Assembly (NCBI GenBank): GCA_964510805.1
Contig: CAZEDG010000002.1
Span: 7,653 to 71,652, forward strand
Direction: 5' to 3'
Length of the DNA stretch: 64,000 bases
DNA from: an uncultured Candidatus Saccharibacteria bacterium
GTDB lineage: Bacteria; Patescibacteriota; Minisyncoccia; Phycocordibacterales; UBA5272
Part shown: one piece after another, positions 686 to 27,431 of the stretch
Layout of the letters: every line of letters starts with the position of its first letter
Position numbering within the stretch: position 1 is the stretch's first letter
The notes under the pieces: generated by a model
What the model saw: only the letters and a program-made list of their open reading frames with translations
Databases searched by the model: none
What the model was told of the DNA's origin: nothing
Translations under genes and position numbers: made by a program

Positions 686-935
686 CAACCAAAAGGGCCA
701 GATGTTAGAAGTTAGACTTTAGATGTTAGAAAATACAGATAAGTTAATAGTTTGTAGTTAATGGTTAATTGTAGAGAAAGAGGAGTGAGGAGCAAAATAC
801 AAGTTAATAGTTTATGGTTAATAGTTACTGGTAAATACAGGAACACAAGAGCGAGGCCGAAGGCCTCGCTCGTGTGTGTGTTGTGTTTTTATCTAAACTC
901 TAAAGTCTAACTTCTAACATCTAGAGGCTACCTAG
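686..935. repeat. MITE-like palindromic intergenic element, copy E1. Inverted AT-rich arms at 694-716 and 908-932; central GC hairpin at 849-871.
   Basis: The arm agatgttagaagttagactttag is the reverse complement of ctaaagtctaacttctaacatctag. The centre is gagcgaggcc-gaag-ggcctcgctc. It also contains ttaatagttaatgg-type subrepeats. Confidence 0.8.
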
Positions 936-2688
936 TCTTCGCCTCTGCGACACCAATCACTGATTCTTTGAGTGCAACAATCACTGAAGTAAGTGATTGT
1001 TTTGCGCTATCTAGAATAGCACTGAAGTTAAGGTTAACCGCTGGTGGGGTGGCAGGGACAACATCGAATGAAAGACCTCCAACATCAGTGTCATAATCTT
1101 GTGTATGCAGAGTATGGCCAGGAAACCCATACCAGTAATAACTAAGTGTTTGTCGTGTACCAAGTGTATGAGTTCCCGCCGAAGCTGGTGCAGTTAAACT
1201 AAAACTAAATGGAAGAGTATATATATCACCAGAACCAACAAATGTCGGGGAACCGAGATTGCCAGTATTTACAAAAAATAATCCTGGAGGTGGGTTACCA
1301 GCATCAAATGTCGAATTATACGCACCATCACAGTCCCCTTCATCAGAACCTCCATAACCCGCATCTGTTTCGAGCAAAAGACTTCCTGATACTGTCATAG
1401 AATCTCCTGGAGCATAAGTTGGGTTCGTGCCGATAGATATTGTACACCAAAAAGAAATCTCACCCATTCTCCCCCATGTCGAAGAATAAAGAGTAAGCGC
1501 CTCCCCCTTCCCCACCGACATCATACTCATCGCAAGGAAAAACATAGATACTGATGCAACCTTTGCAAGCTTGCCACCTGATACTTTGCGAATAATAAGT
1601 GAAGCGATAATGATAAGAGCAAGTACAGCAATAAGGATATACATAAGTGTTGTGTTATTAGATTGTGGAGTAACTTCTTTCTTAGCAACACGAATCACGG
1701 AGAAGTTATCGGTCTTCTGGTCGAGACGATTGTTATCTTTGTCAAAGAGAGCAAGCGTAATTGTACCCTCCTTACATGTCGCCTTAAGTGTATCTTCGAT
1801 CACAGGAGTATCAAGATCTTTGTGTCCTTGGCCACACGGTGCACCACTCTTGTCCTTAAGCGTATACGTTGCTTTTGACCCCTTAAAAGGAGAAGCTCGT
1901 ACTGTAGCAACAAGGTTGAGTCCGTCTTTACCTTCGGTAACAGCAAGACTCTTAATGATTCCGTATGCACCAGGAACAAATATGTTAGTAAGACTTGTCT
2001 CCTTGGTCTTCTCATCCTTCACTACGAACACTCCACGCTTCACATCACTCTTAAGTGTAAAAGTCTTAGTCTCTCCTTTCTTAACCGTTGTTGTAGCAGA
2101 GAGAAGCGCTGTAGGACTAAAGAGTGCTTCATACTCGGCATAAGAGATTGACGCATCAGCTTTGAAGGTACAGGTTACCTTAAGAGCATCTTTTACTTGA
2201 GCACAATCAATGATAGTGCTTGTATTCTTAGGAACAAGATCCTTTGCAAGAATAGACACAGAGTATCTAAGTCCAGCATCACTCTCAGCAACGAGAAGCA
2301 CTTGTACCTTAGACGCATTAAGAGGAGGAAGGGTGTAGGTAAAAGGCTTGTAGATCATCTCTCCTTCCTTAAGAGAAGGAACAATGCCAAGCCTCTCATA
2401 CGAAATCTGCTTATGGGTAGTCGTGTCCACAACCACAATACCGTACCCTATACCATTCTGCATTCCCATATTGCTCATGATATTGAATCCTCCAGTGTAG
2501 GTACCGTTGGATTCCTTGAAGGTAACATCAACCACACGTACATCAGCAATAACTGATACTTTTGTCTTAGACACCGCACCTGACGGTGGTTGAGGGGCTC
2601 TTGTTTGTTGTGCCGGCGCTTGCGCATACACAAACGATGTTGCTAATAATAGGTAGGTAGAAATAATAAAGGTTGTGGACTTTTTCAT
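928..2688 (-). CDS. Secreted/surface protein of unknown function, copy A (586 aa). It has a signal peptide and a central transmembrane segment.
   Basis: Long ORF. The N-terminus MKKSTTFIISTYLLLATSFVYAQAP looks like a signal peptide. It has a hydrophobic helix MYILIAVLALIIIASLIIRKV and a Gly/Ser/Thr-rich C-terminal domain. The + and - ORFs nested inside are shadow ORFs. Confidence 0.7.
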   Translation of the reverse strand: MKKSTTFIISTYLLLATSFVYAQAPAQQTRAPQPPSGAVSKTKVSVIADVRVVDVTFKESNGTYTGGFNIMSNMGMQNGIGYGIVVVDTTTHKQISYERLGIVPSLKEGEMIYKPFTYTLPPLNASKVQVLLVAESDAGLRYSVSILAKDLVPKNTSTIIDCAQVKDALKVTCTFKADASISYAEYEALFSPTALLSATTTVKKGETKTFTLKSDVKRGVFVVKDEKTKETSLTNIFVPGAYGIIKSLAVTEGKDGLNLVATVRASPFKGSKATYTLKDKSGAPCGQGHKDLDTPVIEDTLKATCKEGTITLALFDKDNNRLDQKTDNFSVIRVAKKEVTPQSNNTTLMYILIAVLALIIIASLIIRKVSGGKLAKVASVSMFFLAMSMMSVGKGEALTLYSSTWGRMGEISFWCTISIGTNPTYAPGDSMTVSGSLLLETDAGYGGSDEGDCDGAYNSTFDAGNPPPGLFFVNTGNLGSPTFVGSGDIYTLPFSFSLTAPASAGTHTLGTRQTLSYYWYGFPGHTLHTQDYDTDVGGLSFDVVPATPPAVNLNFSAILDSAKQSLTSVIVALKESVIGVAEAKTR

Positions 2689-2699
2689 ACTACTTAGTA

Positions 2700-2920
2700 T
2701 ATATGGAAGAAGATAAGATTAACGAGGAAGTTGTACACAGATGGTAATGAGAGTGAAGAATGAAGTTAAACTAGATGTTAGAAAAGCGGATAACAGACCG
2801 CTCCGCTACAGACAACAGATAATAGACAATACACACGAGCGAGGCCGAAGGCCTCGCTCGTGTGTGTGTTGTGTTTTTATCTAAACTCTAAAGTCTAACT
2901 TCTAACATCTAGAGGCTACC
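2700..2920. repeat. MITE-like element, copy E2. It has a variant left arm (acagataacag type). The hairpin at 2837-2859 and the right arm at 2896-2920 are identical to E1.
   Basis: gagcgaggccgaaggcctcgctc followed by ctaaactctaaagtctaacttctaacatctag is identical to 849-932. The left part carries a gcggataacagaccgc palindrome. Confidence 0.7.
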
Positions 2921-4676
2921 TAGTCTTCGCCTCTGCGACACCAATCACTGATTCTTTGAGTGCAACAATCACTGAAGTAAGTGATTGTTTTGCGCTATCT
3001 AGAATAGCACTGAAGTTAAGGTTAACCGCTGGTGGGGTGGCAGGGACAACATCGAATGAAAGACCTCCAACATCAGTGTCATAATCTTGTGTATGCAGAG
3101 TATGGCCAGGAAACCCATACCAGTAATAACTAAGTGTTTGTCGTGTACCAAGTGTATGAGTTCCCGCCGAAGCTGGTGCAGTTAAACTAAAACTAAATGG
3201 AAGAGTATATATATCACCAGAACCAACAAATGTCGGGGAACCGAGATTGCCAGTATTTACAAAAAATAATCCTGGAGGTGGGTTACCAGCATCAAATGTC
3301 GAATTATACGCACCATCACAGTCCCCTTCATCAGAACCTCCATAACCCGCATCTGTTTCGAGCAAAAGACTTCCTGATACTGTCATAGAATCTCCTGGAG
3401 CATAAGTTGGGTTCGTGCCGATAGATATTGTACACCAAAAAGAAATCTCACCCATTCTCCCCCATGTCGAAGAATAAAGAGTAAGCGCCTCCCCCTTCCC
3501 CACCGACATCATACTCATCGCAAGGAAAAACATAGATACTGATGCAACCTTTGCAAGCTTGCCACCTGATACTTTGCGAATAATAAGTGAAGCGATAATG
3601 ATAAGAGCAAGTACAGCAATAAGGATATACATAAGTGTTGTGTTATTAGATTGTGGAGTAACTTCTTTCTTAGCAACACGAATCACGGAGAAGTTATCGG
3701 TCTTCTGGTCGAGACGATTGTTATCTTTGTCAAAGAGAGCAAGCGTAATTGTACCCTCCTTACATGTCGCCTTAAGTGTATCTTCGATCACAGGAGTATC
3801 AAGATCTTTGTGTCCTTGGCCACACGGTGCACCACTCTTGTCCTTAAGCGTATACGTTGCTTTTGACCCCTTAAAAGGAGAAGCTCGTACTGTAGCAACA
3901 AGGTTGAGTCCGTCTTTACCTTCGGTAACAGCAAGACTCTTAATGATTCCGTATGCACCAGGAACAAATATGTTAGTAAGACTTGTCTCCTTGGTCTTCT
4001 CATCCTTCACTACGAACACTCCACGCTTCACATCACTCTTAAGTGTAAAAGTCTTAGTCTCTCCTTTCTTAACCGTTGTTGTAGCAGAGAGAAGCGCTGT
4101 AGGACTAAAGAGTGCTTCATACTCGGCATAAGAGATTGACGCATCAGCTTTGAAGGTACAGGTTACCTTAAGAGCATCTTTTACTTGAGCACAATCAATG
4201 ATAGTGCTTGTATTCTTAGGAACAAGATCCTTTGCAAGAATAGACACAGAGTATCTAAGTCCAGCATCACTCTCAGCAACGAGAAGCACTTGTACCTTAG
4301 ACGCATTAAGAGGAGGAAGGGTGTAGGTAAAAGGCTTGTAGATCATCTCTCCTTCCTTAAGAGAAGGAACAATGCCAAGCCTCTCATACGAAATCTGCTT
4401 ATGGGTAGTCGTGTCCACAACCACAATACCGTACCCTATACCATTCTGCATTCCCATATTGCTCATGATATTGAATCCTCCAGTGTAGGTACCGTTGGAT
4501 TCCTTGAAGGTAACATCAACCACACGTACATCAGCAATAACTGATACTTTTGTCTTAGACACCGCACCTGACGGTGGTTGAGGGGCTCTTGTTTGTTGTG
4601 CCGGCGCTTGCGCATACACAAACGATGTTGCTAATAATAGGTAGGTAGAAATAATAAAGGTTGTGGACTTTTTCAT
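2916..4676 (-). CDS. Secreted/surface protein, copy B. It is 100% identical to the protein encoded at 928..2688.
   Basis: The ORF-track translation is identical over all 586 aa. Nucleotides 2837-4733 are identical to 849-2745. Confidence 0.7.
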   Translation of the reverse strand: MKKSTTFIISTYLLLATSFVYAQAPAQQTRAPQPPSGAVSKTKVSVIADVRVVDVTFKESNGTYTGGFNIMSNMGMQNGIGYGIVVVDTTTHKQISYERLGIVPSLKEGEMIYKPFTYTLPPLNASKVQVLLVAESDAGLRYSVSILAKDLVPKNTSTIIDCAQVKDALKVTCTFKADASISYAEYEALFSPTALLSATTTVKKGETKTFTLKSDVKRGVFVVKDEKTKETSLTNIFVPGAYGIIKSLAVTEGKDGLNLVATVRASPFKGSKATYTLKDKSGAPCGQGHKDLDTPVIEDTLKATCKEGTITLALFDKDNNRLDQKTDNFSVIRVAKKEVTPQSNNTTLMYILIAVLALIIIASLIIRKVSGGKLAKVASVSMFFLAMSMMSVGKGEALTLYSSTWGRMGEISFWCTISIGTNPTYAPGDSMTVSGSLLLETDAGYGGSDEGDCDGAYNSTFDAGNPPPGLFFVNTGNLGSPTFVGSGDIYTLPFSFSLTAPASAGTHTLGTRQTLSYYWYGFPGHTLHTQDYDTDVGGLSFDVVPATPPAVNLNFSAILDSAKQSLTSVIVALKESVIGVAEAKTR

Positions 4677-4739
4677 ACTACTTAGTATATATGGAAGAAG
4701 ATAAGATTAACGAGGAAGTTGTACACAGATGGAAGGAGG

Positions 4740-4852
4740 TAACTAGATGTTAGATATTAGATATTAGACTTTAGATATTAGAAAATACAGATAAGTTAAT
4801 AGTTAATAGTAAACACAAGAACACAAGAGCGAGGCTGTAGGCCTCGCTCTTT
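4740..4852. repeat. MITE-like element, copy E3. This is a half element: a left arm and a hairpin with a tgta loop, with no right arm.
   Basis: ctagatgttagatattagatattagactttagatattagaaaatac ... gagcgaggctgtaggcctcgctc at 4827-4849. Confidence 0.65.
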
Positions 4853-5122
4853 GAAGTTAAGAAACCAGAGGGCTTGCCTCTCTGTTTCAATCGGGATTAA
4901 CCCATTTGTATTCTCAGTATATATCTTACAAGGTATTTGTCGAATTACTATTCTTCTCCTATTTTATCTTCTCCTATTTTAAAATAGTTTTCATAATATC
5001 GAGATTAAGTAAAAAAGCCCCCAACGAAGACGGAACTTCATAAGGGTCTTTTTCGTAGTGATGTAGGTAGTATACACCTATTTAGAAATAAAAAAGGATA
5101 TTCCACATGCTACAATAAAAAT

Positions 5123-12528: not shown

Positions 12529-15189
12529 GTGCAACTTAACTCAGAAGTAGCTTTACTTTCAAGACTAACCAAAGATCATGCATCTGGTCTTGCTCGTCTT
12601 TCGATTACCACAATCAAGGATTTGCTTTTTCACTTTCCTGTTCGTTATGCTGACATGCGAGAGATTGGAAGTACAAAGACACTTGCAAAAGGAGAAGCGG
12701 TTACACTCTTTGGCATACTCGAGAAGGTCACCGTCAAGCGAAGCTTCCGTGGCCATATTCCCATGACCGAAGCCAGGCTTCGTGATGCATCAGGAACACT
12801 TCGTCTTGTATGGTTCAACCAAGCCTACATTGGCAAGATGTACACCGATGATACAAAAGTAAAGATTCAAGGCATTATCCAAGAAGACTCGCGAGGATTC
12901 TTCTTGACCAACCCTAGCATAGAAAAGATACAAGCAATCCCAGAGCCAACTGAGAGTCTCTTTACAATAGATATAAGCGAAGACGGAAAATCAAAAGAAC
13001 AAGAACCTCTCTTCCTCACCCCTGTCTATCCAGAAACAAAAGGAGTTTCTTCGCTCTACCTCTACACACTTATCAAAAAAATTTTTACAAGTAATCTCAT
13101 AGACACACTAGAGGATCCAATACCAGAGGATATTCTCAAGAAGCTTCATCTTCCATCACTCAAAGATGCTCTCACGTATATACATTTTCCTAAAGAGCAC
13201 ACTCATACAGTTATAGCGAGAAAGCGATTTGCCTTCGAGGAGATCTTCTACCTTCAGATAAAACAAAACAAAGAAAAACAGGAAGCAAAGAACTCTCTTG
13301 CGTATCCAATCACTGTACAAAAAAAAGAGCTGAAGGAATTCATGGAGAGGTTTCCTTTTACACCAACACAGGGGCAATATAACGCAATTGACTCCATACT
13401 CTCTGATCTCAAGAAGACCGAGCCAATGGGAAGACTTCTTGAAGGAGATGTTGGAAGTGGCAAGACATTCGTCGCTGCGACTGTTGCATATATGACACTC
13501 CTTCATGCAAATGAAAGCTCTGGTAAGAGACTTCAGGTTGCTTACATGGCACCAACTGAGATACTCGCCAAGCAACACTTCGAGAGCTTCATAACCTATC
13601 TCCAGGGTACCGGTATCGAGATCGGACTTCTCACAGGATCCGGGTGCAAAAAATACCCAAGCAAAGGAGGAGATGAAGTAACCAATATATCAAAAGCACA
13701 GCTTCGCACATGGCTTCATGATGGCCGTGTCTCTATCGTCATAGGTACTCATGCGCTTATCCAAAAGACAATTACCTTCGACTCTCTCGCGCTCATCATT
13801 ATCGATGAACAGCATCGCTTCGGTGTTAAGCAACGTAAACTCTTAGCGCAGAAAGGACGCAGAAATAACGCAGAACAAGCGGAACAAGTAGAAGAATATA
13901 ACCATACTCTTCTTGATGAAAAAAAATCCAATCTTCTCTATGAGACTACAACATATACATTACGCGAAGCATTGTTTACAATAAAAAAAGAACTAGGCGG
14001 TGGCCACAAAGAGATAATCTACGAAAGAGCACTTGAAGAAGAACTAACACGAAAAGGAATACGTTTTTCTCGTCAAGTATCTCTACCTGTCCTATATCGT
14101 GATAAGCAAATTGGAACCTATAGACCTGACTTTATCATTGAAGATAGTATAATTCTTGAATTAAAAGCATTATCTTTTATTGGAGCAGAAGCAAAAAAAC
14201 AACTTTGGACTTATCTAAAAAATACAAAATATTCACTTGGTATTTTAGTGAACTTTTCTCCTACAGAATTACAAATTCAAAGAGTTGTGTACGACACAGC
14301 AAGAACTTCTTCCGCGTCAGTTCCGCCCAGTTCTGCGGTGTCTGCATATAAAATCCCTCACCTTCTCTCAATGACCGCAACACCTATTCCACGCACACTT
14401 GCGCTCACCATGTTCGGGGATCTTGATCTTACTGTGCTTGATGAAGTGCCAAAGGAACGCAAGCGTATCATAACCGAAATTGTACGATCATCTAAACGAA
14501 AAGAAATCTACGAAAAAGTGCGCGAAGAGTTACGAAGTGGTCGCCAAGTGTATGTTATTTGTCCACGTATCGAAGAGGATGACGAAGCGCTTGCAGATAA
14601 GCAAATGCTACGAAGTGTAAAAGAAGAAGCAAAGCGATTAAGTGATACTGTCTTCCCAGAATATGTGATCGATATCCTTCACAGCAAAATGAAGAAAGAA
14701 GAAAAAGAAGAAGTGATGCAAGATTTTCTTGATAAAAAATCAGATATCTTAGTTGCAACCTCAGTGGTTGAAGTTGGAGTGAATGTGCCGAATGCTTCTG
14801 TGATTATTATCGAGCACGCTGACCGCTTCGGCCTTGCACAGCTTCATCAGTTACGTGGTCGCGTCGGAAGAGCAGAACATCAATCATACTGTTACCTCTT
14901 CACCGAAGGAGTAAGTGAAGTTACGTATAACAGACTTATCTCTTTAGTAAAAGCAAAGAACGGCTTCGAGTTAGCTGAGATGGACATGCTTGCACGCGGT
15001 ATCGGCACCTTAAATGATGGCAAGCAATGGGGGCTAAGTGACTTAGCAATGGAAGCAATCAAGAATCCTAAGCTTGTTGAGATTGCACAACAAGAAGCAA
15101 AGTTACTCATAGAAAAAGATACAAGTCTTAACAATCACCCTCACCTTCGCGACCACATCAAGACACACAGTGATGTGCATATGGAGTAG
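12529..15189 (+). CDS. recG: ATP-dependent DNA helicase RecG carrying an in-frame GxxExxY-family PD-(D/E)XK domain insertion.
   Basis: LLFHFPVRYADM wedge-region motif. Helicase motif I GDVGSGKTFVA, motif II IIIDEQHRFG and motif III MTATPIPRTL. VATSVVEVGVNVP and QLRGRVGR are also present. An extra segment of about 167 aa lies between motifs II and III. Confidence 0.85.
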   Translation: MQLNSEVALLSRLTKDHASGLARLSITTIKDLLFHFPVRYADMREIGSTKTLAKGEAVTLFGILEKVTVKRSFRGHIPMTEARLRDASGTLRLVWFNQAYIGKMYTDDTKVKIQGIIQEDSRGFFLTNPSIEKIQAIPEPTESLFTIDISEDGKSKEQEPLFLTPVYPETKGVSSLYLYTLIKKIFTSNLIDTLEDPIPEDILKKLHLPSLKDALTYIHFPKEHTHTVIARKRFAFEEIFYLQIKQNKEKQEAKNSLAYPITVQKKELKEFMERFPFTPTQGQYNAIDSILSDLKKTEPMGRLLEGDVGSGKTFVAATVAYMTLLHANESSGKRLQVAYMAPTEILAKQHFESFITYLQGTGIEIGLLTGSGCKKYPSKGGDEVTNISKAQLRTWLHDGRVSIVIGTHALIQKTITFDSLALIIIDEQHRFGVKQRKLLAQKGRRNNAEQAEQVEEYNHTLLDEKKSNLLYETTTYTLREALFTIKKELGGGHKEIIYERALEEELTRKGIRFSRQVSLPVLYRDKQIGTYRPDFIIEDSIILELKALSFIGAEAKKQLWTYLKNTKYSLGILVNFSPTELQIQRVVYDTARTSSASVPPSSAVSAYKIPHLLSMTATPIPRTLALTMFGDLDLTVLDEVPKERKRIITEIVRSSKRKEIYEKVREELRSGRQVYVICPRIEEDDEALADKQMLRSVKEEAKRLSDTVFPEYVIDILHSKMKKEEKEEVMQDFLDKKSDILVATSVVEVGVNVPNASVIIIEHADRFGLAQLHQLRGRVGRAEHQSYCYLFTEGVSEVTYNRLISLVKAKNGFELAEMDMLARGIGTLNDGKQWGLSDLAMEAIKNPKLVEIAQQEAKLLIEKDTSLNNHPHLRDHIKTHSDVHME
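13950..14300 (+). other. GxxExxY (PDDEXK_3-like) nuclease-fold domain embedded in RecG.
   Basis: GGGHKEIIYERALEEELTRKGIRFSRQVSLPVLYRDKQIGTYRPDFIIEDSIILELKA...LGILVNF matches the GxxExxY family architecture: G-x-x-E-x-x-Y, then D...(D/E)xK. The segment is more AT-rich than the flanking recG sequence. Confidence 0.7.
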
Positions 15190-15194
15190 CTGGA

Positions 15195-15365
15195 AACTAG
15201 ATGTTAGATATTAGACTTTAGAGATTAGAAAACACGGATAAGTTAATGGTTAATAGTTAATGGTTAATAGTAAATACAAATACACAAAGAGCGAGGCCTT
15301 CGGCCTCGCTCTTGTATTTGTATTTTTATCTAGAGCCTAAAGTCTAATATCTAACATCTAGTTTA
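15195..15365. repeat. MITE-like element, copy E5. It is complete: left arm, hairpin at 15289-15311 and right arm at 15337-15361.
   Basis: ctagatgttagatattagactttagagattagaaaacac ... gagcgaggccttcggcctcgctc ... ctaaagtctaatatctaacatctag. Confidence 0.8.
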
Positions 15366-15419
15366 ACTTCACTCCTCATTCTCTACAATTAACCATTAAC
15401 TACTTTGTCGTACCTTATC

Positions 15420-15800
15420 CTCAAAGTGCATCCACCTGGACCAGGAACCTGCGGACCAGTCTTGTATACTAAGACGTATTTTTTATGCACTCCTGTCTTA
15501 TAAACATGGTGCGCCCACCTGGACTCGAACCAGGGACCAGTCGTGTATACTAAGTCGTATTTTGATTTCATTCGTACCTTATCCTCAAAGTGCATCCACC
15601 TGGACTCGAACCAGGGACCAGTCGTGTATAAGACGACGGCTCTACCAACTGAGCTATGGATGCACTTTGTTGACAATGTACTCATTTATCAAAATAAGAC
15701 GACGGCTCTACCAACAAAGCTTAGGCGCACTATGTTTATAATCCCCTCGTTTTCAAAAATAAGACGACGGCTCTATCTGCAAAACTTAAATCCAACAAAA
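15420..15800 (-). repeat. Cluster of partial tRNA copies around the tRNA above: two degenerate 3' halves and two degenerate 5' halves.
   Basis: 3'-half copies are at about 15430-15480 and 15505-15560; the latter reads ...CCTGGTTCGAGTCCAGGTGGGCGCACCA with an encoded CCA. 5'-half copies are at about 15700-15740 and 15755-15800 (aagacgacggctctacc...). ORFs 15389..15685 and 15543..15869 are artefacts of this array. Confidence 0.6.
15591..15663 (-). tRNA. tRNA with anticodon UAU (predicted tRNA-Ile, AUA-decoding; tentative isotype).
   Basis: The reverse complement folds as acceptor GCATCCA/TGGATGC, D-arm GCTC-AGTTGGTA-GAGC, anticodon stem GTCGT/ACGAC with loop CTTATAC, variable loop TGGTC, and T-arm CCTGG-TTCGAGT-CCAGG, with discriminator A. 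No CCA is encoded. Confidence 0.55.
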
Positions 15801-18959: not shown

Positions 18960-19351
18960 GGGGGGTGTACTTTGGCTTTGATAATAAGAATATGTCTTGT
19001 GTGCTGTATCGAGATCGCCTAAGCACTCGTTAACGTTTAGGTACCCATGTTGCAAAAACAACTGGCAAGGCTATTCCTTCACCATATATGGCAGGAATGG
19101 TTCCAGCATTCGCCTAAATTACTGGCCAATCTGGTGTCTCCTTCTATCGTATCTACGGATAGATTGTAGGCAATATAACAGTAGAGGTAGATTATCTTGT
19201 TGCATAGCAAAATAATCGAAATAATTATGCTATACCTATGATGCTTTTGTTTGCTTCTGATATCATGGCGCGAAACACACTAAGCAAACTATATACAGTA
19301 GAAACATTCTTCATACCTTGTTACACGCGGGTTCGAATCCCGCCACCTCCA
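18960..19351 (+). ncRNA. ssrA: tmRNA (SsrA).
   Basis: 5' GGGGGTG pairs with 3' CACCTCC and includes the G3:U wobble. The 3' tRNA-like end is GCGGGTTCGAATCCCGCCACCTCCA. An internal reading frame ...GKAIPSPYMAGMVPAFA-TAA at 19064-19117 is the putative tag, with a possible GCA resume codon at 19052. No CCA is encoded. ORF 18997..19215 is spurious. Confidence 0.8.
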
Positions 19352-19354
19352 CTG

Positions 19355-27310: not shown

Positions 27311-27431
27311 TTTTTTAATTAAAATTTAGTAATAGTCAGTAATTGTATTAACAACTTTGATAATCAAGGTATGCGACACTCTGTATTTGTTCTGCGTTCT
27401 TCCGCGTTTAGTCCGCGGTATTCTGCGCTGT

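What the first reader, a model, noticed from the sequence alone, without database searches (positions are those of the whole stretch)
13858..14358. In-frame insertion of a GxxExxY PD-(D/E)XK nuclease-fold domain into the RecG helicase core
RecG is intact in all helicase motifs. Between motif II (IIIDEQHRFG) and motif III (MTATPIPRT), where RecG normally has about 10 residues, there are about 167 extra residues. The core of the insert is an unmistakable GxxExxY-family domain: GGGHKEIIYERALEEELTRKGIRF...LPVLY...YRPDFIIEDSIILELKA...LGILVNF. There is no intein signature (no N-terminal Cys/Ser, no C-terminal HN plus Cys/Ser/Thr), so the domain is expected to remain in the mature protein. The insert is more AT-rich than the rest of recG, consistent with a selfish or mobile origin. 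GxxExxY genes are normally stand-alone and high-copy. A copy lodged inside a surface loop of an essential recombination helicase would be an undescribed mode of propagation or domain acquisition, and could give RecG a nuclease or structure-recognition module.
Basis: partly seen in the sequence, partly recalled or inferred. Interest (0 to 1): 0.72.

Follow-up and report, generated by a model that had tools for sequence, protein, structure and literature searches.

The report
Mobile nuclease cassette translated inside RecG
The extra 159 residues in this RecG helicase are a copy of a selfish nuclease-gene cassette, flanked by inverted repeat arrays, that in these tiny-genome (CPR) bacteria sits in frame inside many essential genes and appears to be tolerated by being translated as an extra surface domain instead of being spliced out.

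Summary
recG (12529-15189, +) is intact and carries an in-frame GxxExxY / PF13366 PD-(D/E)XK nuclease domain between helicase motifs II and III.

It is not a RecG-specific module. It is one copy of a roughly 450-500 bp cassette: a nuclease ORF bracketed by inverted arrays of four CGCNGAY heptamers spaced about one helical turn apart. The disordered linkers are the translated arrays.

The evidence for mobility in RecG is:
- Insert-bearing alleles are scattered among insert-free alleles that are 92-97% identical.
- Host identity and insert identity are uncorrelated.
- One "empty" allele keeps a deletion footprint.

The same cassette sits in frame in LepA, LeuRS, SecA, GatB, glycosyltransferases and other CPR proteins. 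It also occurs as stand-alone genes and as about 85-nt array-only mini-elements.

The catalytic residues are kept in 83-84 of 84 embedded copies, and dN/dS is about 0.05-0.16.

Many junctions carry inverted copies of the adjacent host codons. These copies are absent from empty alleles, which points to hairpin or fold-back insertion intermediates.

There is no intein or intron signature. No paper in the library searched describes this. The closest precedents are Rickettsia palindromic elements and the phage "ShiLan" insertion.

The anatomy and evolutionary pattern are shown here. The nuclease activity and the mechanism of movement are inferred.

The parts
12529..15189 (+). recG ORF (886 aa, GTG start) carrying the insertion. 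The wedge domain and helicase motifs are intact.
   Evidence: The AF2 model's best PDB match is RecG 1gm5, E 6e-39.
13804..13824 (+). Helicase motif II, DEQHRFG (aa 426-432). This is the last conserved host block before the element.
   Evidence: invariant in the alignment of 59 RecGs.
13847..14346 (+). The whole mobile cassette, from outermost heptamer to outermost heptamer (500 nt). The net gain over empty alleles is 477 nt. The left boundary is uncertain by about 12 nt, because the first unit overlaps host-like codons AQKG.
13847..13884 (+). Left array of four heptamers: CGCAGAA at 13847, 13858 and 13869, and AGCGGAA at 13878. It is translated as ..AQKGRRNNAEQAEQ.. and forms part of the disordered N-linker.
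   Evidence: The linker, aa 445-467, has pLDDT below 50.
13933..14292 (+). Nuclease core (LLYE...RVVY, 120 codons), family GxxExxY / PF13366. It has no start or stop codon of its own.
14011..14166 (+). Catalytic and signature codons: E495 (14011-14013), Y498 (14020-14022), D534 (14128-14130), E544 (14158-14160) and K546 (14164-14166).
   Evidence: These residues are conserved in 83-84 of 84 embedded copies.
14310..14346 (+). Right array of four heptamers in inverted orientation: TTCCGCG at 14310, TTCCGCC at 14321, TTCTGCG at 14331 and GTCTGCA at 14340. It is translated as ..SSASVPPSSAVSA.. and forms the disordered C-linker.
   Evidence: The linker, aa 590-605, has pLDDT below 50.
14371..14397 (+). 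Helicase motif III, MTATPIPRT (aa 615-623). This is the first conserved host block after the element.
27390..27427 (-). A solo four-unit array of the same kind (CGCAGAA tac CGCGGAC taaa CGCGGAA gaa CGCAGAA; spacing 10, 11, 10). It lies between the ssb stop codon and rpsR, with no nuclease ORF and no partner array. It is probably a relic of another copy.
   Evidence: Arrays of 3 or more units occurred 0 times in 5 shuffles of 668 kb.

Best explanation
The segment is a resident copy of a selfish DNA cassette. The cassette is a GxxExxY PD-(D/E)XK nuclease gene bracketed by inverted arrays of four CGCNGAY heptamers spaced 10-12 bp apart.

In CPR/Patescibacteria a sub-lineage of these cassettes has lost its own start and stop codons. 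It lives inside host genes as an in-frame, stop-free insertion in surface loops.

The host ribosome reads straight through:
- The arrays become two flexible linkers of about 20 residues each.
- The nuclease folds as an extra domain.
- RecG, cut between motifs II and III, keeps working.

The nuclease is kept active by selection because it drives the element's spread. It most likely binds its own heptamer arrays as a multimer and makes the DNA break that starts copying into an unoccupied allele of the same gene. This is a homing-like pattern with one element lineage per site. New genes are invaded only rarely.

Insertion appears to pass through hairpin or fold-back intermediates at the cut target ends, which leaves inverted copies of 8-18 nt of host sequence at fresh junctions. 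Copies are lost by internal deletion, which leaves array footprints or about 85-nt array-only mini-elements.

Shown here: the anatomy, the in-frame state, the patchy and incongruent distribution, purifying selection on the active site, and junction palindromes that are absent from empty sites.

Inferred: that the protein keeps the insert, that the nuclease binds the arrays and cuts the target, and the fold-back mechanism.
For: 1. Domain and fold. PF13366 and TIGR04256 match far above their cut-offs. The core is confidently folded and the linkers are disordered. The fold is PD-(D/E)XK.

2. Arrays. Left and right inverted arrays flank essentially every copy, embedded or stand-alone, and the unit variant is shared by both arms of an element.
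- Spacing is 10, 11-12, 10.
- 99 arrays occur in 668 kb against 0 in shuffles, and 75 of them lie next to a nuclease core.
- Position 4 of the unit and the spacers are not complementary between arms (50% and 43% identity). That fits protein-binding sites better than an RNA stem.

3. Mobility in RecG.
- 22 occupied alleles are scattered over the tree built from the flanks only.
- The nearest empty alleles are 92-97% identical in protein, and 90.5%, 87% and 81.5% identical in DNA for three pairs.
- Host identity and insert identity are uncorrelated (r = 0.15). Hosts that are 94% identical carry inserts that are 53% identical.
- Core dN is far below host dN in some pairs and above it in others.
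- P0031 retains the outermost units as a footprint.

4. Generality.
- 56 of 80 GTDB loci are open for at least 40 codons on both sides.
- Hosts include LepA, LeuRS, SecA, a Val/Ile-tRNA synthetase-like enzyme, AsnB, GT4 and Wzy.
- 43 host Pfam families occur among the 65 long representatives.

5. Selection. E, D, E and K are kept in 83-84 of 84 embedded copies. Core dN/dS is 0.05-0.16.

6. Site lineages. For 80 of 84 embedded cores, no copy in a different host gene is clearly closer than the best copy in the same host gene.

7. Junction palindromes.
- A score of 7 or more occurs at 34% of left junctions and 24% of right junctions, against 3.4% of control windows. They usually abut the outermost unit.
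- In LepA the arms match each lineage's own codons.
- They are absent from two empty LepA alleles, where a 6-aa loop stands instead.

8. Array-only mini-elements sit in frame at other sites of LepA, RecG and LeuRS.

9. No Rfam intron and no intein domain.
Against: - Nothing here shows the nuclease is active, binds the heptamers or cuts empty sites.
- There is no transcript or peptide evidence that the insert stays in RecG.
- The window's own copy has irregular array spacing (11, 11, 9 and 9, 10, 11) and no junction palindromes. It may be an old copy that no longer moves.
- No direct target-site duplication was seen, and PD-(D/E)XK enzymes are hydrolytic, so hairpin formation would need other factors.
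- At a second LepA site the flanking hairpin is made of two native host segments. Some palindromes may therefore be selected or pre-existing rather than made at insertion.
- The NJ trees are low-resolution and dS is saturated.
- Distinct element lineages use exactly the same RecG site, and this is not explained without invoking a target specificity that I could not identify.
Confidence: 0.72

Rival explanations
1. Domesticated domain. An ancestral RecG acquired the nuclease once and keeps it because it adds a useful activity to fork or junction processing, such as cutting or recognising branched DNA. Presence and absence then reflect vertical descent with losses.
For: The catalytic residues are under strong purifying selection. 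RecG works on branched DNA, and the fold resembles junction- and flap-processing nucleases (Cas4, Dna2, Hjc). The profile has a weak sequence match to T7 endonuclease I (E 0.24). The window copy lacks fresh-insertion marks.
Against: Occupied alleles are polyphyletic, with empty sisters 92-97% identical. Host and insert identities are uncorrelated. The same cassette with the same arrays sits in proteins that have nothing to do with DNA: LepA, LeuRS, SecA, GatB, glycosyltransferases and Wzy. The flanking arrays and the mini-elements have no role in such a model.
Confidence: 0.08
2. The insert is removed before the mature protein is made. Possible routes are an unrecognised intron, RNase III or IVS-like excision at the stem formed by the arrays followed by re-ligation, ribosomal bypassing, or an atypical intein.
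Against: 56 of 80 loci, and the mini-elements, keep the host frame open through both arrays and the whole core, which RNA-level removal would not require. There is no Rfam family. There are no Hint or intein blocks and no nucleophile at the junctions (and the sequence). The RNA fold z-score is only -1.97. Unit position 4 and the spacers are not complementary. The catalytic set E-D-ExK is that of metal-dependent DNases, not of EndA.
Confidence: 0.07
3. Passenger model. The cassette is mobile, but its nuclease is not the mobility enzyme. Movement relies on host recombination and natural transformation, or on another transposase. The nuclease is kept for a different selfish or defensive role, such as addiction, restriction-like defence or exclusion, with the arrays acting as operators or recombination hot spots.
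For: No activity data exist. Spread among orthologous sites could be achieved by homologous recombination in the highly conserved motif II and III flanks. Stand-alone family members are very abundant outside CPR. One paper reports a GxxExxY gene next to a CRISPR-associated reverse transcriptase, though its authors think the gene may be an unrecognised cas4.
Against: Inverted arrays with helical-turn spacing bracket the nuclease gene and co-vary with it in unit type. Mini-elements keep only the arrays. Junction palindromes are templated on each recipient's own codons, which plain homologous replacement does not explain. No other transposase gene travels with the cassette.
Confidence: 0.13

Closest known systems
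Rickettsia palindromic elements (RPEs), i.e. intragenic MITEs
   Same: Short mobile DNA with palindromic or inverted ends. It inserts in frame into many unrelated housekeeping genes, is translated with the host protein and is tolerated because it lands in surface regions (review PMC10969869). The array-only mini-elements of about 85 nt found here look like a direct counterpart.
   Different: RPEs are about 150 bp, encode no enzyme, and no autonomous partner is known for them. Here the full-length element encodes a conserved nuclease in the host's frame. Its ends are arrays of four heptamers. It occurs in CPR bacteria. No sequence relationship to RPEs was tested.
ShiLan-type 'hidden HNH' insertion in actinophage DNA methylase genes (Arsenault, Gosselin and Gogarten 2025, PMC11855218)
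   Same: A homing-like insertion element inside a protein-coding gene that has no stop codons in the host frame and no detectable intein or intron. It is predicted to loop out of the host protein, and it carries a nuclease gene.
   Different: There the nuclease is HNH and is read in a different frame from the host. Here it is a PD-(D/E)XK nuclease read in the host frame as a domain of the host protein. The present family has repeat arrays, junction palindromes, mini derivatives and dozens of host genes.
Inteins with homing endonuclease domains
   Same: In-frame insertion next to conserved motifs of essential proteins. Distribution at one site among close alleles is sporadic. Host and element phylogenies are incongruent. 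Each insertion site has its own lineage. The nuclease is maintained by selection.
   Different: There is no Hint splicing domain, no junction nucleophiles and no HN motif (and the sequence). The element is expected to remain in the mature protein.
Stand-alone GxxExxY (TIGR04256 / PF13366 PDDEXK_3) genes
   Same: Same protein family, same conserved E, D and ExK residues, and the same inverted heptamer arrays around the ORF in the stand-alone copies examined (L059-L083).
   Different: Stand-alone copies have their own start codon (sometimes overlapping the innermost unit) and their own stop codon, and they lie between genes. The family's function is listed as unknown in the only survey that names it (PMC3424549).
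TIR transposons and REP/RAYT-type units
   Same: A nuclease or transposase gene is bracketed by inverted repeats made of reiterated short binding-site-like units, and there are non-autonomous mini derivatives.
   Different: There is no DDE or HUH transposase. No direct target-site duplication was seen. Many junctions carry inverted duplications of the target instead.

Membership tests
RecG helicase | N-terminal wedge/OB domain | tested here: met
   PF17191 RecG_wedge, E 1e-19, aa 18-136.
RecG helicase | Superfamily 2 helicase core with motifs I (GSGKT), II (DEQH), III (TATPIPRT) and the C-terminal helicase domain | tested here: met
   DEAD and Helicase_C Pfam matches. The motifs were located. 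RecG equivalog models match both halves; the scores (699.9 against a cut-off of 718) fall just short because the insert splits the match.
RecG helicase | Overall fold like solved RecG | tested here: met
   Foldseek best hit is 1gm5_A, E 6.4e-39.
GxxExxY protein (TIGR04256 / PF13366 PDDEXK_3) | Profile match above the curated cut-off over the full model | tested here: met
   PF13366: 115.8 bits (cut-off 22), profile positions 3-117 of 117. TIGR04256: 120 bits (cut-off 35), positions 3-116 of 116.
GxxExxY protein (TIGR04256 / PF13366 PDDEXK_3) | GxxExxY motif and the PD...(D/E)xK catalytic residues | tested here: met
   GHKEIIY (E495, Y498), RPD (D534) and ELK (E544, K546). These are invariant in alignments A1 and A3.
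GxxExxY protein (TIGR04256 / PF13366 PDDEXK_3) | Nuclease activity | not testable with these tools
Intein | Hint splicing blocks: N-terminal Cys/Ser/Thr, C-terminal His-Asn, and a +1 nucleophile | tested here: not met
   The junctions read ...QKG|RRNNAE and ...SAYK|IPHLL. There is no Hint, intein or LAGLIDADG Pfam match at E up to 0.01.
Group I / group II intron | Ribozyme core detectable by covariance model | tested here: not met
   Rfam E-value scan of 13500-14700 returned only one chance-level snoRNA match. The host frame is open throughout.
Homing endonuclease gene (functional class) | Sporadic presence at one site among close alleles, with element history decoupled from host history | tested here: met
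Homing endonuclease gene (functional class) | The nuclease cleaves the unoccupied target site | not testable with these tools
   Empty-site sequences are in hand, but no recognisable shared target motif was found.
TIR transposon / MITE | Terminal inverted repeats | tested here: met
   Inverted heptamer arrays at both ends.
TIR transposon / MITE | Direct target-site duplication | tested here: not met
   Comparisons of occupied and empty sites show replacement of a short host loop and inverted duplications, not direct ones.
Rickettsia palindromic element | In-frame, translated, palindromic insertion in many unrelated genes | tested here: met
   This is a functional resemblance only.
Rickettsia palindromic element | Sequence homology to RPE families; no encoded enzyme | tested here: not met
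   The full-length element encodes a nuclease. Sequence comparison with RPEs was not done.
ShiLan-type hidden-nuclease insertion | The nuclease is encoded out of frame with the host | tested here: not met
   Here the nuclease is in the host frame. The paper was read.

The most novel reading that the evidence does not exclude
Besides introns (removed as RNA) and inteins (removed as protein), there may be a third way for a nuclease-encoding selfish element to live in essential genes: not being removed at all.

On this reading the GxxExxY cassette is an autonomous element whose nuclease works while embedded as a domain of the host protein. The nuclease recognises its own heptamer arrays and inserts through hairpin or fold-back intermediates that leave inverted target duplications. 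The element also spawns array-only mini-elements.

It would then be a major, so far unrecognised source of insertions and new domains in the proteins of CPR bacteria. It would also give a function to the large PF13366 family, whose role is unknown, and perhaps, by analogy of architecture, to PF05635.
Probability: 0.4. Interest if true: 0.9.

Novelty: new variant of a known kind. Interest (0 to 1): 0.8.

Why it matters
- It assigns a concrete, testable biology to a very large protein family of unknown function (9429 cluster representatives at E up to 0.001). The proposal is a mobile cassette with defined ends.
- It shows that essential CPR proteins such as RecG, EF4, aminoacyl-tRNA synthetases, SecA and GatB tolerate a translated domain of about 160 residues. 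This may explain part of the puzzling insertions seen in CPR proteins, and it causes mis-annotation: NCBI names one of these RecGs 'GxxExxY protein'.
- The heptamer arrays and the junction palindromes offer a handle on a possibly new insertion chemistry.
- The nuclease with its arrays could be a compact sequence-specific DNA-binding and cutting module.
- The finding links full-length elements to RPE-like mini insertions, for which no autonomous partner has been known.

Tried and rejected
- **Other copies in the window.** tblastn of the insert against the window found none. Only a solo array was found.
- **Intron or known RNA.** The Rfam E-value scan was negative. The RNA fold of the element gave a weak z of -1.97, so an RNA-stem reading was set aside. 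The non-complementary position 4 and spacers point the same way.
- **Terminal inverted repeats as one long stem.** This was replaced by arrays of heptamers once many loci were compared.
- **Solved-structure relatives by sequence.** Only an insignificant match to T7 endonuclease I was found.
- **Frequent jumps between host genes.** The NJ core tree suggested this. Nearest-neighbour identities show that elements are mostly specific to one host gene, so the idea was downgraded to 'rare'.
- **Unit-like target motif in empty RecG loops.** None was convincing.
- **Direct target-site duplications.** None were seen.
- **Viral contigs.** Only distant relatives at 30-41% identity, so there is no evidence for phage carriage.
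- **Literature.** Searches for GxxExxY, PDDEXK_3, PF13366 and for CPR in-frame insertions found no description of this element.
- **Missing data.** P0104, the closest empty sister of P0017, had no DNA on file.
Full report
**1. The observation**

A single ORF, 12529-15189 (+), encodes an 886-aa RecG.
- Pfam finds the RecG wedge, DEAD and Helicase_C domains. Between the two helicase halves it finds PF13366 (PDDEXK_3) at aa 474-586, E 1.8e-33.
- NCBIfam gives TIGR04256 'GxxExxY protein' at 120 bits against a cut-off of 35. The RecG equivalog models match in two pieces around the insert.
- Motif II (DEQHRFG) starts at aa 426 and motif III (MTATPIPRT) at aa 615.
- The closest insert-free RecGs have 23 residues between DEQHRFG and MTATP. 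This protein has 182, a net gain of 159 codons.
- No intein domain and no Rfam family is present.

**2. Structure**

An AlphaFold2 model of the whole protein, built on 59 sequences, has mean pLDDT 74.5.
- Residues 468-589 fold confidently (block means 79-90) as helix-helix-four strands-helix-two strands.
- They are joined to the helicase by two segments with pLDDT below 50, aa 445-467 and 590-605.
- The best solved match of the whole model is RecG 1gm5.
- Modelled alone with 80 family members, the core reaches pLDDT 90.8.

The insert is therefore an independent nuclease-fold domain on flexible tethers.

**3. It is not a fixed feature of RecG**

Among the 120 best RecG relatives, all from CPR/Patescibacteria where named, 22 carry the insert at exactly this site and 98 do not.
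- A neighbour-joining tree built from 700 flank columns only scatters the 22 over the whole tree, often next to insert-free sisters.
- The nearest empty alleles are 92-97% identical in protein, for example P0015/P0091 at 97% and P0003/P0047 at 96%.
- At the DNA level three occupied/empty pairs are 90.5%, 87.1% and 81.5% identical.
- Host identity and insert identity are uncorrelated over 231 pairs (r = 0.15). P0002 and P0011 are 94% identical as hosts but 53% identical in the insert.
- Core dN can be far below host dN (0.09 against 0.43) or above it (0.29 against 0.13).
- The 'empty' P0031 still carries a degenerate outermost left unit, 21 nt and the outermost right unit of a P0009-like element. 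That is a deletion footprint.

This is the pattern of a mobile element with repeated gain, replacement and loss. It is not the pattern of a domesticated domain.

**4. The unit that moves is larger than the domain**

Comparing occupied and empty alleles, and then about 85 loci, shows that the core is bracketed by inverted arrays of short repeats.
- A typical end has four heptamers CGCNGAY laid out unit-3 nt-unit-4 or 5 nt-unit-3 nt-unit. The spacing is 10, 11-12, 10, about one helical turn. The other end is the reverse complement.
- In the window the left units start at 13847, 13858, 13869 and 13878. The right units start at 14310, 14321, 14331 and 14340.
- The 'linkers' (..NAEQAEQ.., ..SSASVPPSSAVSA.., and in relatives ..ADHAD.., ..SAxSA..) are simply these arrays read in the host frame.
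- Arrays of three or more units occur 99 times in 668 kb of fetched DNA and never in five shuffles. 75 of them lie next to a nuclease core.
- Each element uses its own unit variant (GAC, GAT, GAA, TACAGAC, CACAGAT, ACTGAT and others) in both arms.
- Unit position 4 is only 50% identical between arms and the spacers only 43%.
- The RNA fold of the element is only marginally better than shuffles, z = -1.97.

I read the arrays as protein-binding sites rather than as an RNA stem. That reading is an inference.

**5. The phenomenon is general**

A scan of one genome per GTDB species with the insert alignment returned 80 loci, nearly all Patescibacteria.
- In 56 of them the match lies in an ORF open for at least 40 codons on both sides. 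In 4 it is fused on one side. In 20 it is a stand-alone gene of 123-168 codons.
- Hosts identified by Pfam are RecG, LepA/EF4, LeuRS, a Val/Ile-tRNA synthetase-like enzyme, SecA (two different sites), asparagine synthase, a GT4 glycosyltransferase, an O-antigen-ligase-like membrane protein, and one protein with two copies.
- An exhaustive phmmer search of 1.84 billion cluster representatives found 9429 relatives at E up to 0.001. Of the best 150, 65 are at least 290 aa long, most with the domain internal. Those 65 carry 43 different host Pfam families, including GatB, transketolase, GT2 and pilin-like proteins.
- A profile search shows that stand-alone proteins of 125-155 aa are the common form.
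- In the core tree the embedded copies form a sub-lineage with stand-alone copies outside.
- Stand-alone copies have the same arrays, just outside or overlapping their start and stop codons.

**6. Selection**

In 84 embedded copies, the E and Y of GxxExxY, the D of PD, the E and K of ExK, and a conserved Q and N are kept in 83-84 cases. Core dN/dS is 0.05-0.16 in the pairs where dS is not saturated. The nuclease is therefore maintained while embedded, as expected if its activity serves the element.

**7. How it spreads**

For 80 of 84 embedded cores, no copy in a different host gene is clearly closer than the best copy in the same host gene. Each site therefore has its own element lineage, as with inteins, and moves to new genes are rare. 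I could not find a shared target motif in the empty sites.

A second, unexpected feature bears on mechanism. Directly outside the outermost unit, many junctions carry a perfect palindrome. Its outer arm is host coding sequence and its inner arm is the reverse complement of that sequence.
- A score of 7 or more occurs at 34% of left junctions and 24% of right junctions, against 3.4% of control windows.
- In LepA the arms are 8-18 nt and match each lineage's own codons. The left stem covers the codons of host residues V-R-M, and the right stem covers those of (V/I)-L-N-L. An example is the left junction GTCAGAATGATA|TATCATTCTGAC.
- Two empty LepA alleles, one with 90% protein identity to an occupied host, have no palindrome. 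They carry a six-residue loop (ENESGK or TLRGTS) where the occupied allele has inner arm - element - inner arm.

The palindromes therefore arise with the insertion. They look like the product of hairpin opening or fold-back priming at the two cut target ends. No direct target-site duplication was seen.

There are three caveats:
- At a second LepA site the hairpin is built from two native host segments.
- The window's own copy has no junction palindromes.
- PD-(D/E)XK nucleases are hydrolytic, so other factors would be needed.

**8. Derivatives**

Twenty-four arrays are not next to a core.
- Several are back-to-back inverted pairs with only 4-25 nt between them. These are mini-elements of 80-100 nt that are again in frame. 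They sit in LepA at two further sites (L047, L052, L042; L045, L020), in RecG after the CPRID block (L010), and in LeuRS (L035).
- The window has a solo four-unit array at 27390-27427 between ssb and rpsR.

**9. Comparison with what is known**

The family is listed with 'unknown' function in the PD-(D/E)XK survey (PMC3424549). Apart from incidental mentions, no paper in the library describes it.

The closest known things are these:
- Rickettsia palindromic elements are in-frame, translated palindromic insertions in many genes, but they encode no enzyme (PMC10969869).
- The ShiLan insertion of phage methylases is in-frame, non-splicing and homing-like, but it has an HNH nuclease in another frame (PMC11855218).
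- Inteins show the same population pattern, but the Hint blocks are absent here.

I therefore file this as a new variant of a known kind, in-frame non-spliced selfish insertions. New in this case are the cargo family, the in-frame nuclease domain, the heptamer arrays, the junction palindromes and the breadth of hosts.

**10. Verdict**

It is not a RecG innovation. It is one instance of a widespread cassette family that appears to be undescribed. Whether this particular copy is still mobile is uncertain. Activity, array binding and the fate of the insert in the protein remain to be tested.

Noticed in passing
window 27390-27427 (- strand): A solo four-unit heptamer array (CGCAGAA, CGCGGAC, CGCGGAA, CGCAGAA; spacing 10, 11, 10) lies in the 120-nt gap between the ssb stop codon and rpsR. 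It has no nuclease ORF and no inverted partner, and is probably a relic of another cassette.
   Followed up: partly
L001 484-513 and 895-924; L084 1127-1145 and 1528-1555; also L002, L085-L087: In relatives, a PF05635 (23S_rRNA_IVP / bAvd-like four-helix-bundle) gene sits immediately upstream of recG. It is bracketed by its own inverted arrays of contiguous 7-nt repeats, for example CTACACG x4. The right array is translated as the first 10-15 residues of RecG (MSKPTRYTLHATRL...). So a second small-ORF family has the same cassette architecture. It is absent upstream of recG in the window.
   Followed up: partly
L047 4788-4870, L052 4833-4912, L042 about 4800-4879, L045 5041-5125, L020 5104-5180, L010 4644-4744, L035 4728-4819: Array-only mini-elements (left array plus right array, 80-100 nt, no nuclease) are inserted in frame at other loops of LepA, RecG and LeuRS. 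They resemble Rickettsia palindromic elements.
   Followed up: partly
L009 3164-3532 and 3977-4429: One 862-codon ORF with no other Pfam domain contains two GxxExxY cores.
   Followed up: no
proteins P0268, P0273, P0276 and about 40 others: A group of proteins of 250-280 aa consists of two tandem GxxExxY domains.
   Followed up: no
window 839-2749 and 2827-4737: A tandem duplication with a period of 1988 nt, 99.5% identical over about 1.9 kb.
   Followed up: partly
window 15400-15663 (- strand): tRNA-Ile(TAT) at 15591-15663 is followed by two partial copies of its 3' half (anticodon arm to acceptor end). This looks like scars of integrations into the tRNA gene.
   Followed up: partly
window 15263-15330: A long hairpin just downstream of the recG stop codon. 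It matches miRNA-precursor models on both strands at sub-threshold scores, and is probably a terminator.
   Followed up: no
window 18961-19354 (+): A tmRNA gene (Rfam, 79 bits) that ARAGORN did not report.
   Followed up: no
P0017, P0002; P0148, P0150: Public annotation names whole RecG or LepA proteins 'GxxExxY protein' because of the embedded domain. This is a systematic mis-annotation.
   Followed up: no
L070 (338 codons upstream, 1 downstream), L077 (10 upstream, 309 downstream), L081 (SecA, 31 codons before the C-terminus): These cassettes are fused to only one side of a host gene, or sit close to its end. They are possible intermediates between the stand-alone and embedded states.
   Followed up: no
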